Positions 46,601 through 49,600 of a DNA stretch of 64,000 nt are shown piece by piece. Position 1 is the first letter of the stretch. Each line of letters opens with the position of its first letter. Source of the DNA: Escherichia coli. GTDB taxonomy: Bacteria; Pseudomonadota; Gammaproteobacteria; Enterobacterales; Enterobacteriaceae. Location: NCBI RefSeq assembly GCF_024700885.2, contig NZ_CP117016.1; one strand, given 5' to 3'. Made by a program: the position numbers.

Positions 46601-49600
46601 TATAAGCACTATAAGGAACTCAAAGGTAAAATTGAAGAAAATCTTCAAAATCGCCAGACGGAATATCAAAATGAAATTAATCAACTATCTGCGCCAGGTG
46701 TTAATTTTGATGATATTTAAAATTATTTTTCCAGTTTTTTGATTTTTCAACGCCTGAATATCGGAAATAGTCAGTGACGAACATCAGTATTTTTACATAA
46801 TTACGTCCAGGTTATTGTCGGTTTATCTTCTTTTACTTGGGGTAATTGAGGGATAACAACAAAAAAGGTGAGTTTTGCGATTCACCTTTTTTATTTGTTT
46901 CTTATTCAGAATCGATATCTTTTAAATCATCCTGAATTGCTTGCGCGTTCGGATTTTCCTGCGGTTTGAGTTCGCCGCCATTAGCGATGAAATCATGACG
47001 CTGGAAGTACGCTTCGCGCACCATAATGTAAGGATCGGACGACTGACGCAGCAGACCATCGGAATCCAACAACTGCGCACGAGTTTCTATCCCTTCAAGC
47101 GTCCATTTACCCACAGACATCGGCCAGGTCAGCCAGGAAAGAACCGGGTAAAGACCATCCGCCATATCACCACCGTCATCACGCAGCGTGAAGCTACCGT
47201 AGAATGGTAACTGAACGTACGGCCCATAACCCACGCCATAATGACCAAGCGTACTACCGAAGCGGTGAGGTTCAGTCCGTTGCAGTTTCGGGTTCGCCAT
47301 CCCTGCAACATCAATAAAGCCGCCCATCCCCAAAATGGTGTTCAGGAAAAAGCGGGTAAAGTGGACCATCCCCTGATAAGGGTCGCCCTGCAAGAAGTAG
47401 TTAACCATCACCGCAGGTTCTTCCAGGTTGCCCGTGAAGTTGCTCAAACCGTTACGCGCCGGTTGCGGAACATAATCACGCCAGGCGACAGCCACCGGTC
47501 GAACAACATACGGGTCTAATACATTGAAGTTGAAGTTGTACATGGTGCGGTTGAACCCTTCTAACGGGTCAGAACGCCCCTGCTGATCTGTACCGGAACT
47601 CGCACACCCCACCAGAAGCGTAGTTCCCAGAGCAAGCGCCGACAGGCGAAGCTTCATAAATGTCTCCCTGTTTTTTTATGGCTTATGCAGTTTGCCATCC
47701 ATGACGGAACGATACCGTATCCGCCTGTTTAGGTGTGGGCGATTGTAACAGCACGTCAACTGATGTCCAGACGCCCTGATTTGCTGATTTGATCATAGCC
47801 TGGTAATCGCCGCCCTGTAGGCTACTTGATTCTATAGAAACAGAAAAAGGCAAACGCAGCCTTTTCTACATTTTCAGAGTAACTCCCGCCAGTTGCGAGC
47901 AAAAAAGCCGCTACGCTTTAGCTATACGTGCTAATTCAAGAGAAGAGACCATGGACAACGACAAAATTGATCAACACAGCGACGAAATTGAAGTTGAGAG
48001 CGAAGAAAAAGAGCGCGGCAAAAAAATAGAAATAGATGAAGACCGACTCCCCTCCCGGGCGATGGCAATTCATGAGCATATCCGCCAGGATGGTGAAAAA
48101 GAGCTGGAACGCGACGCAATGGCGCTATTGTGGTCAGCCATTGCGGCGGGTCTGTCGATGGGCGCTTCGCTACTGGCAAAAGGGATATTTCATGTCGAAC
48201 TGGAAGGCGTGCCGGGCAGCTTCTTGCTGGAGAATCTCGGTTATACCTTTGGTTTTATTATCGTCATTATGGCCCGCCAGCAATTATTTACCGAAAACAC
48301 CGTGACTGCGGTACTACCCGTCATGCAAAAACCGACAATGAGCAACGTCGGCTTACTTATGCGATTATGGGGCGTCGTGCTGCTGGGTAATATTCTCGGG
48401 ACAGGTATTGCTGCATGGGCATTTGAATATATGCCTATCTTCAATGAAGAAACTCGCGATGCATTTGTCAAAATCGGCATGGATGTGATGAAGAACACCC
48501 CCAGCGAGATGTTTGCCAACGCGATCATTTCCGGCTGGCTGATCGCCACTATGGTATGGATGTTTCCTGCAGCGGGTGCGGCAAAGATTGTGGTGATTAT
48601 ATTGATGACCTGGCTTATTGCCCTGGGTGACACCACTCACATCGTTGTCGGTTCTGTTGAAATCCTCTATCTGGTGTTTAACGGTACGCTGCACTGGAGC
48701 GATTTCATCTGGCCCTTCGCACTACCTACTTTAGCGGGGAACATCTGCGGCGGCACCTTTATCTTCGCGTTAATGAGTCATGCACAGATCCGTAACGACA
48801 TGAGCAACAAGCGCAAAGCCGAAGCACGCCAAAAAGCAGAACGTGCGGAAAACATTAAGAAAAATGATAAAAACCCGGCATAAATGGCGAGGGTTTAAGC
48901 AATCGAGCGGCAGTGTACTTACCCCGCAGTCCATTAGCGGGTATACTCATGCCGCATTGTCCTCTTAGTTAAATGGATATAACGAGCCCCTCCTAAGGGC
49001 TAATTGCAGGTTCGATTCCTGCAGGGGACACCAGATACCCTTCTAACAATATCTACCTTCGCCCCGTAAAAGATGGGTTTGGCAGCACACTTGCCCTATA
49101 TCTACTCATTTTTACTGCAACAGGTTGAAATCTCAGCACTGTCAGAAAGCGCTGATGACTAAACAGCCCTGGGCCGGGCGATGTAACCATCACACAGAAT
49201 CCTGATAGCGAAATATGGCGTGACTCGATACTTCACTCTGCAATGCATTCCTTGATGAATTCGCAGGCCCGTGATACACGGGACAGGTCGCTGAATGACG
49301 ACAATGTCCTGGAAATCAGCGAACCGCGTATCCGGAGTACATTTGAGCGACTGTACCAGAACATGAATGAGGCGTTTGGATTAGGTGATTATTAGTTGGG
49401 CTAAGCATTTTAGTATTATTATTTTCCGGTTGAGGGATATGGAGATATCGACAACAACCGGAAAAAGTTTACGTCTATATTGCTGAAGGTACAGGCGTTT
49501 CCATCACTATTTGCTCGCGTTTTTTACTCAGGAAGAAAATGCCAAATAGCAACATCAGGCAGACAATACCCGAAATTGCGAAGAAAACTGTCTGGTAGCC

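What the first reader, a model, noticed from the sequence alone, without database searches (positions are those of the whole stretch)
48959..49474. argW integration hotspot unoccupied by prophage; 440-bp spacer of unclear origin
argW is followed directly by about 440 bp of non-coding sequence and then cscB; there is no integrase gene and I could not spot a duplicated copy of the tRNA 3-prime end. The spacer contains a short stop-bounded open frame (ending ...FERLYQNMNEAFGLGDY) that may be a gene remnant marking the island boundary.
Basis: seen in the sequence. Interest (0 to 1): 0.35.

Follow-up and report, generated by a model that had tools for sequence, protein, structure and literature searches.

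The report
Empty argW site with gene relic
The 441 bases between the tRNA gene argW and the sucrose gene cscB are ordinary genomic debris: the decayed middle of a mobile-island gene (DUF4942) plus the tail of the sucrose gene cassette, next to an intact but empty phage integration site. About half of all E. coli share this arrangement.

Summary
argW (tRNA-Arg CCU) lies at 48959-49033 and cscB at 49475-50722 on the minus strand, so the spacer is 441 bp. The 64-kb window has no integrase homologue and no second copy of the argW 3' end.

The short open frame is a real gene remnant. It is the internal part of a DUF4942 gene, not a C-terminal end (Pfam PF13708, E 1.4e-9, profile positions 5-62 of 190). 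The pseudogene spans about 49091-49386. It is truncated at both ends and carries an in-frame stop and a 55-bp frameshifting deletion.

Intact relatives (about 52% amino-acid, 76% nucleotide identity) are terminal genes of CP4-type tRNA-integrated islands. The last 70-80 bp, with a hairpin, belong to the csc cassette, which Citrobacter amalonaticus carries at another locus without the relic. The first 57 bp have no detectable relative.

The spacer occurs in 2644 of 5426 complete E. coli genomes, matching csc carriage. The argW-spacer junction is unoccupied in 1414 of them; most of the others tested hold prophages. The spacer evolves at a neutral rate.

The locus is well known (argW-dsd/csc hotspot) and RefSeq already annotates the fragment, so interest is low.

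The parts
48959..49033 (+). argW, tRNA-Arg(CCU), complete
   Evidence: ARAGORN; Rfam RF00005, 63.4 bits; 100% identical to argW in other E. coli.
49019..49033 (+). 15-nt attachment core CTGCAGGGGACACCA, used by argW-integrating prophages; present once, so the site is unoccupied
   Evidence: The same 15 nt are repeated at the right end (pawZ) of CPS-53 in K-12 and at the attR of the strain 1190 prophage, directly before an identical spacer. There is only one copy in the window.
49034..49090 (.). 57 bp with no detectable relative (segment A); possibly a further-decayed 5' part of the pseudogene or an old att arm
   Evidence: blastn finds no paralogue in 5426 E. coli genomes or in phage records. 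There is no HMM or tblastn signal. It is the most divergent part between alleles, 9-11%. It is weakly alignable in a divergent Escherichia genome.
49091..49386 (+). DUF4942 pseudogene, truncated at both ends. Residues about 35-63 are in the reading frame of 49034, with a TAA at 49160-49162. A 55-bp deletion and frameshift lies near 49186/49187. Residues 85-151 are in the reading frame of 49036.
   Evidence: Pfam PF13708, E 1.4e-9, profile positions 5-62 of 190. blastn to a full-length gene: 76% over 49177-49378 and 74% over 49100-49187. Nucleotide alignment showing the 55-bp gap. Family HMM hits to positions 85-151 (E 1.8e-21) and 35-70 (E 0.0017). tblastn about 52% identity.
49213..49395 (+). 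Probably not a functional gene.
   Evidence: RefSeq CDS on identical DNA; the ORF listing. Start and length vary between alleles. Annotation is inconsistent between genomes. Non-synonymous to synonymous differences are 8:3 and 4:2.
49387..49406 (.). About 20-bp junction between the relic and the csc cassette; it supplies the last two codons and the stop codon of the residual frame
   Evidence: DUF4942 homology ends at 49378-49386. Homology to the Citrobacter csc locus starts at 49407, possibly about 49396.
49407..49474 (-). 3' flank of the csc cassette, with a hairpin (arms 49422-49432 and 49455-49465) downstream of cscB
   Evidence: 80-82% identity to two C. amalonaticus csc loci runs from 54401 to 49407. 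The hairpin is conserved in Citrobacter and in a divergent Escherichia genome. Inverted repeat of 11 nt, 100% complementary. RNA fold -17.3 kcal/mol, z -3.3.
49475..50722 (-). cscB sucrose permease, first gene of the csc cassette (cscB, cscK, cscA, cscR; cassette to about 54401)
   Evidence: ORF; RefSeq annotation of identical DNA.

Best explanation
The spacer is non-functional debris next to an intact, empty argW attachment site. It has three pieces.

(A) 57 bp of unrecognisable sequence lie directly after the tRNA.

(B) A pseudogene of about 296 bp is the internal third of a DUF4942 gene. In intact form this gene is the last gene of CP4-type islands (cbtA/cbeA toxin-antitoxin islands integrated at tRNA genes). 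Here it has lost both ends and carries a stop codon and a 55-bp frameshifting deletion.

(C) The last 70-90 bp are the 3' flank and hairpin of the 5-kb csc sucrose cassette.

Shown: the identity of each piece, the decay, the neutral rate, the population frequency, and the use of the same site by prophages in other strains.

Inferred: a CP4-like island once sat at argW, in E. coli or in the lineage that donated this allele. Deletions then removed its integrase side up to the DUF4942 gene. Insertion or replacement by the csc cassette removed the rest, together with attR, dsdC and the first 1120 nt of dsdX.

Nothing in the spacer needs to work today. The exceptions are the tRNA 3' end, which serves as attB, and probably the cscB hairpin, which may act as a transcript end or stabiliser.
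For: - Pfam DUF4942 scores above its cut-off.
- There are two collinear homology blocks to a full-length island gene, with a 55-bp gap and a frame change between them.
- In strain CP8-3 the intact gene is the last gene of an Ag43 / DUF932 / antirestriction / yeeS / yeeT / cbeA / cbtA / DUF5983 / DUF957 / DUF4942 island that abuts a tRNA-Ile gene.
- No other island or integrase gene is present in the window, and there is no second att copy.
- The csc cassette limits 49407-54401 come from two C. amalonaticus loci. There csc lies beside an MCP gene and fbp-mpl, with no tRNA gene found in either locus and no blastn match to the relic.
- K-12 homology stops at 49033 and resumes at 54604, inside dsdX.
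- The spacer occurs in 2644 genomes and the csc right junction in 2691 of 5426. The dsd-type flank occurs in 2710.
- Spacer divergence is 5-9%, against 1-2% in yfdC, cscB and cscK. Non-synonymous to synonymous differences are about 3:1.
- A divergent Escherichia genome (csc about 90% identical) has the same relic with three further deletions.
- Prophages are integrated at the same site in front of the same spacer.
Against: - No genome examined carries an intact CP4-like island at argW. No full-length gene is closer than about 52% amino-acid or 76% nucleotide identity to the relic. This held in 5426 E. coli genomes, in plasmids, and in 1.84 billion protein cluster representatives. The former island is therefore inferred, not observed.
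- The relic is transcribed away from argW, the opposite of the orientation in the one intact example examined.
- Segment A is unexplained.
- The hairpin lacks a canonical U-tract, and the terminator scan did not call it.
Confidence: 0.72

Rival explanations
1. The DUF4942 fragment did not decay in place. The whole stretch from the base after argW to dsdX' (relic plus csc) entered E. coli as one imported allele from another lineage, by homologous recombination through argW/yfdC and dsdA. The relic then records events in the donor.
For: The relic and csc co-occur almost one to one (2644 against 2691 genomes). The csc-type and dsd-type alleles differ from the very first base after the tRNA. No intermediate (80-90% identical) relative exists in E. 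coli. The arrangement is already present in a divergent Escherichia lineage.
Against: The only non-Escherichia csc loci recovered with close similarity (C. amalonaticus) lack the relic and lie at a different locus. This reading does not change what the sequence is, only where it decayed.
Confidence: 0.2
2. The 50-60 aa open frame is a functional small protein, a domesticated N-terminal DUF4942 fragment.
For: PGAP annotates it as a CDS in many genomes. The frame from ITQNPD... to GLGDY* is open in the E. coli alleles examined.
Against: It covers only 58 of 190 domain positions. Predicted starts and lengths differ among alleles, from 54 to 85 aa. PGAP leaves it unannotated in many genomes. Substitutions are mostly non-synonymous and the rate equals that of the surrounding non-coding DNA. 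A related lineage has deleted most of it. No promoter-like site was found in 48800-49600.
Confidence: 0.04
3. The spacer is mainly regulatory non-coding DNA: an argW 3' trailer or terminator together with the cscB terminator.
For: A stable conserved hairpin lies at 49422-49465. Any tRNA gene needs a 3' trailer.
Against: Only the last 70 bp or so are conserved outside Escherichia. There is no Rfam match apart from the tRNA and no terminator-like or promoter-like call in the spacer. Prophage insertion separates argW from the whole spacer in more than 1000 genomes, so argW does not depend on it. Most of the length is demonstrably a pseudogene.
Confidence: 0.04

Closest known systems
E. coli argW-dsdCXA / cscRAKB variable locus (Jahreis et al. 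2002; Moritz and Welch 2006, as cited in PMC11251922, PMC3032704, PMC13054288 and PMC4366372)
   Same: Gene order is yfdC, argW, cscB, cscK, cscA, cscR, truncated dsdX, dsdA. csc replaces dsdC and most of dsdX. argW is a phage integration hotspot. The csc-type and dsd-type alleles split the species roughly in half.
   Different: Nothing differs; this window is a standard csc-type allele with an empty attB. The held literature does not discuss the content of the 441-bp argW-cscB spacer.
DUF4942 (PF13708) genes at the end of CP4-type tRNA-integrated islands (cbtA/cbeA, yeeS, yeeT module)
   Same: Significant sequence homology at nucleotide, protein and HMM level to residues about 35-151. It lies next to a tRNA gene.
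   Different: Only about 40% of the gene remains, with a stop codon and a frameshift. Amino-acid identity is about 52%. No accompanying island genes, integrase or att repeat are present. Its orientation relative to the tRNA is opposite to the intact example.
CPS-53 / KplE1 cryptic prophage at argW in K-12, and related argW prophages (strain 1190, O157:H7)
   Same: They use the same 15-nt core at the argW 3' end.
   Different: In the window the site is empty. No intS, torI or core duplication is present.

Membership tests
DUF4942 (Pfam PF13708) protein family | Match to the family HMM above the curated gathering score | tested here: met
   38.3 bits against a cut-off of 25, E 1.4e-9. A family HMM built here gives E 1.8e-21.
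DUF4942 (Pfam PF13708) protein family | Intact full-length coding sequence (about 281 aa, whole 190-position domain) | tested here: not met
   Only profile positions 5-62 of 190 are present. There is an in-frame stop, a 55-bp frameshifting deletion, and truncation at both the 5' and 3' ends.
CP4-type tRNA-integrated genomic island / cryptic prophage | Tyrosine integrase gene next to the tRNA | tested here: not met
   tblastn with three integrases finds nothing in the window. ORFs from 49034 to dsdA are all accounted for.
CP4-type tRNA-integrated genomic island / cryptic prophage | Direct repeat of the tRNA 3' end (attL and attR) | tested here: not met
   A single copy at up to 3 mismatches of the 23-mer and up to 2 mismatches of the 15-mer.
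CP4-type tRNA-integrated genomic island / cryptic prophage | Core module genes (DUF932, antirestriction, yeeS, yeeT, cbeA, cbtA, DUF5983, DUF957) | tested here: not met
   tblastn with all eight proteins gives no hits in the window. Only the DUF4942 fragment remains, so this is at most a relic, not a member.
Functional attB for argW-integrating phages (KplE1/CPS-53 type) | Intact core sequence at the tRNA 3' end, and integration observed in this sequence context | tested here: met
   The core is identical to the K-12 pawZ repeat. Strain 1190 carries a prophage whose attR is followed by a 100% identical spacer. Actual integration into this strain cannot be tested with these tools.
csc (chromosomal sucrose catabolism) regulon | cscB, cscK, cscA and cscR in the canonical arrangement beside a truncated dsdX and dsdA | tested here: met
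   ORFs; RefSeq annotation of DNA 100% identical over 49019-57000.
Intrinsic (Rho-independent) terminator | G+C-rich hairpin followed by a U-tract | tested here: inconclusive
   A hairpin of -17.3 kcal/mol, z -3.3, is conserved across genera. The tail is AAUAAUAAUAC and the consensus scan did not call it.

The most novel reading that the evidence does not exclude
The csc sucrose cassette may have reached the E. coli chromosome as cargo of, or by insertion into, a CP4-type island integrated at argW. The DUF4942 fragment would then be the last trace of that vehicle. This would give a concrete mechanism for the species-wide dsd/csc dimorphism, which is usually attributed vaguely to 'the argW hotspot'.
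Probability: 0.2. Interest if true: 0.3.

Novelty: already known. Interest (0 to 1): 0.1.

Why it matters
It matters little beyond tidy annotation. The argW-dsd/csc locus is a textbook variable region, and RefSeq already labels the fragment a 'DUF4942 domain-containing protein'.

The useful points are these:
- That CDS should be treated as a pseudogene.
- The edge of the csc cassette can be placed at about 49396-49407.
- The attB here is intact and available, which is relevant to strain engineering and to prophage typing.
- The relic hints that a CP4-like island preceded or accompanied csc at this site.

Tried and rejected
- Search for a closer, intact parent of the relic. None was closer than about 52% amino-acid or 76% nucleotide identity. 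I tried a word-indexed protein search (which found only the same fragment in other genomes), exhaustive phmmer over 1.84 billion representatives, tblastn against plasmids and blastn against 5426 E. coli genomes.
- Search for relatives of the first 57 bp. blastn, tblastn and the HMM found nothing. An 11-14 bp extension of similarity into a P4-like satellite's attL flank was judged to be chance.
- Rfam at a permissive E-value: only the tRNA.
- Promoter and terminator scan: nothing in the spacer.
- The primary papers on the locus (Jahreis 2002, PMC135337; Moritz and Welch 2006, PMC1698345) are not held. Their content is cited only through later papers.
- The idea that the fragment is the C-terminal end of a gene at an island's far end is rejected, because the match is to the N-terminal third of the domain.
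- The idea that the fragment is part of the transferable csc cassette is rejected for the cassette as shared with Citrobacter.

Full report
OBSERVATION

ARAGORN finds a single tRNA gene in the window, tRNA-Arg(CCT), at 48959-49033 on the + strand. Rfam confirms it. The next real gene is a 415-aa ORF at 49475-50722 on the - strand. Window 49019-57000 is 100% identical to E. coli strain 1190. RefSeq annotates that stretch as an oligosaccharide MFS transporter (CscB), a kinase (CscK), cscA, a LacI-family regulator (CscR), a partial dsdX, and dsdA.

The argW 3'-end 23-mer occurs once at up to 3 mismatches, and the 15-nt core occurs once at up to 2 mismatches. tblastn with IntS, a P4-like integrase, a lambdoid integrase, TorI and the CP4-island proteins finds nothing in the 64 kb except one fragment inside the spacer. 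The quoted open frame (ATG 49243 to stop 49393-49395) exists.

ANATOMY OF THE SPACER

Translating the stop-bounded frame gives a Pfam hit to DUF4942 (PF13708): 38.3 bits against a cut-off of 25, E 1.4e-9. The hit covers only profile positions 5-62 of 190. So this is the N-terminal part of the domain, not a C-terminal stump.

blastn against a full-length DUF4942 gene gives two collinear blocks. Window 49100-49187 matches at 74% and 49177-49378 at 76%. A nucleotide alignment shows a 55-bp gap between the blocks. An HMM built from 89 full-length family members matches two places:
- residues 85-151 in the reading frame of 49036 (E 1.8e-21);
- residues 35-70 in the reading frame of 49034 (E 0.0017), where a TAA interrupts the frame at 49160-49162.

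The relic therefore spans about 49091-49386, which is residues about 35-151 of a 281-aa protein. It lacks both ends and has a nonsense codon and a frameshifting deletion. Its ...GLGDY* ending is created by the 3' truncation junction.

The first 57 bp (49034-49090) gave no signal in any search.

The last part is the flank of the csc cassette. Two Citrobacter amalonaticus genomes carry csc at 80-82% identity from window 54401 down to 49407. In the C. amalonaticus locus whose flanks I examined (L007), cscB is followed by a chemotaxis-receptor gene and fbp-mpl. Neither locus holds a tRNA gene, and blastn found no part of the relic in either. The shared flank contains an 11-nt perfect inverted repeat at 49422-49432 and 49455-49465. 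It folds at -17.3 kcal/mol, z -3.3, on the cscB strand, and it is conserved in Citrobacter and in a divergent Escherichia genome. It has no canonical U-tract, and the terminator scan did not call it.

WHAT THE RELIC COMES FROM

In strain CP8-3 the intact homologue is the last gene of an island abutting a tRNA-Ile gene. That island carries an Ag43 adhesin, DUF932, an antirestriction gene, yeeS, yeeT, cbeA, cbtA, DUF5983, DUF957 and DUF4942. This is the CP4-type module known from the K-12 cryptic prophages (my own knowledge for that name).

Amino-acid identity of the relic to these proteins is about 52% and nucleotide identity about 76%. No closer full-length relative exists in any collection searched:
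- 5426 complete E. coli genomes, where best-hit identities fall into 90% or more, or below 80%, with none between;
- PLSDB plasmids;
- 1.84 billion protein cluster representatives;
- the word-indexed 5.8-billion-protein set, which returned only the same fragment.

The parent island is therefore inferred, not observed.

POPULATION CONTEXT

- The spacer is present in 2644 of 5426 complete E. coli genomes, and nearly full-length in 2623.
- The csc right-hand junction is present in 2691.
- The alternative K-12-type flank, argW core plus 95 bp plus dsdC, is present in 2710.

The two alleles thus split the species almost exactly. They differ from the first base after the tRNA's CCA. K-12 homology resumes at 54604, inside dsdX.

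The uninterrupted argW-spacer junction is found in 1414 genomes, so roughly 1200 csc-type genomes have something inserted at argW. Examples:
- Strain 1190 has a prophage with rexAB, erf and torI, whose attR is followed by an identical spacer.
- O157:H7 EDL933 has a P22-like remnant and an attR copy of 23 nt with a one-base deletion.
- An ETEC strain has an intS stump followed by ISEc46, and only the last 77 bp of the spacer remain.
- Some genomes without the spacer carry P4-like satellites or IntS-type prophages at argW.

The site in the window is thus a bona fide attB that is simply empty.

IS ANYTHING UNDER SELECTION?

Between alleles the three spacer segments differ by about 2-11% (mostly 5-9%). 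Against the same genomes yfdC, cscB and cscK differ by 1-2%, and argW is invariant. Within the residual frame, non-synonymous to synonymous differences are 8:3 and 4:2, close to the neutral expectation. Predicted proteins from this locus in public data have different starts and lengths, from 54 to 85 aa, or are read-through fusions. PGAP annotates the frame in some genomes and not in others.

One genome is titled E. coli SCPM-O-B-8794 but serves as a separate species representative in the genome collection. Its csc is about 90% identical. It has the same argW-core, relic, csc arrangement, with three further deletions that remove most of the relic. All of this is the behaviour of a decaying pseudogene. 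It also shows that the arrangement predates the split of these lineages, or was transferred between them as one unit.

MECHANISM

Shown:
- the pieces and their homologies;
- the decay;
- the empty but usable attB.

Inferred:
- A CP4-like island once occupied argW, in E. coli or in the lineage that donated the csc-type allele.
- Deletion removed everything between the tRNA end and the 5' part of the DUF4942 gene.
- Arrival of the csc cassette, or a deletion associated with it, removed the 3' part of the gene, attR, dsdC and the first 1120 nt of dsdX.

The main rival is that the whole argW-to-dsdX' allele was imported as a block and the decay took place elsewhere. This changes the location of the history, not the nature of the sequence. 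A functional small protein or a regulatory spacer is unlikely, for the reasons given above.

COMPARISON WITH WHAT IS KNOWN

The locus is the well-described argW-dsdCXA/cscRAKB variable region. csc replaces dsdC and part of dsdX, sucrose and D-serine use are mutually exclusive, and argW is a phage hotspot (PMC11251922, PMC3032704, PMC13054288 and PMC4366372, citing Jahreis 2002 and Moritz and Welch 2006, which I could not read). None of the four held papers that mention DUF4942 concerns this locus, judging from their titles and abstracts; I did not read them. RefSeq already labels the fragment.

The membership tests gave:
- DUF4942 homology: met.
- Intact DUF4942 gene: not met.
- CP4-type island (integrase, att repeats, core module): not met, so this is at most a relic.
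- attB for argW phages: met.
- csc regulon: met.

VERDICT

The finding is ordinary and essentially already known, so interest is low.

Noticed in passing
L019 5016-5056 (O157:H7 TR01) compared with L004 12600-12640 (K-12): In O157:H7 TR01, the first 40 nt or so after argW on the attL side of an IntS-type prophage are identical to the 40 nt that follow the K-12 attR core on the dsdC side. K-12 and ETEC attL carry a different 40 nt. All three then converge on the same intS-upstream sequence. So the 'bacterial' flank of the dsd-type allele and a phage arm share sequence, which suggests mosaic att arms or an older phage relic in the dsd-type flank.
   Followed up: partly
window 49034-49474; phage records ON470589.1, ON470594.1, ON470608.1, ON470622.1: Four deposited 'Escherichia phage' records contain the whole argW-cscB spacer at 96-99% identity. 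These are probably prophage-derived records that include host flank. This matches the remark in PMC11251922 that csc is found in four coliphage genomes.
   Followed up: no
window 54402-54603: About 200 bp lie between the end of the Citrobacter-shared csc cassette (54401) and the resumption of dsdX homology (54604). They have no paralogue elsewhere in E. coli and occur only in csc-type genomes. Their origin is unknown. dsdX retains only its last 218 nt.
   Followed up: partly
L002 5955-7958 (ETEC L7_E1373): An intS 5' stump followed by ISEc46 (tnpA plus TnpB) has replaced all but the last 77 bp of the spacer. This shows IS-mediated erosion continuing at the locus.
   Followed up: no
L005 about 6465-6524 (Escherichia sp. 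MOD1-EC7003): Downstream of cscB, similarity to the window stops inside the hairpin after its first arm. The contig ends about 60 bp later. This may be an insertion or an assembly break.
   Followed up: no
window 49213-49395: PGAP annotation of this frame is inconsistent across near-identical genomes: 'DUF4942 domain-containing protein', 'hypothetical protein', or nothing at all.
   Followed up: yes
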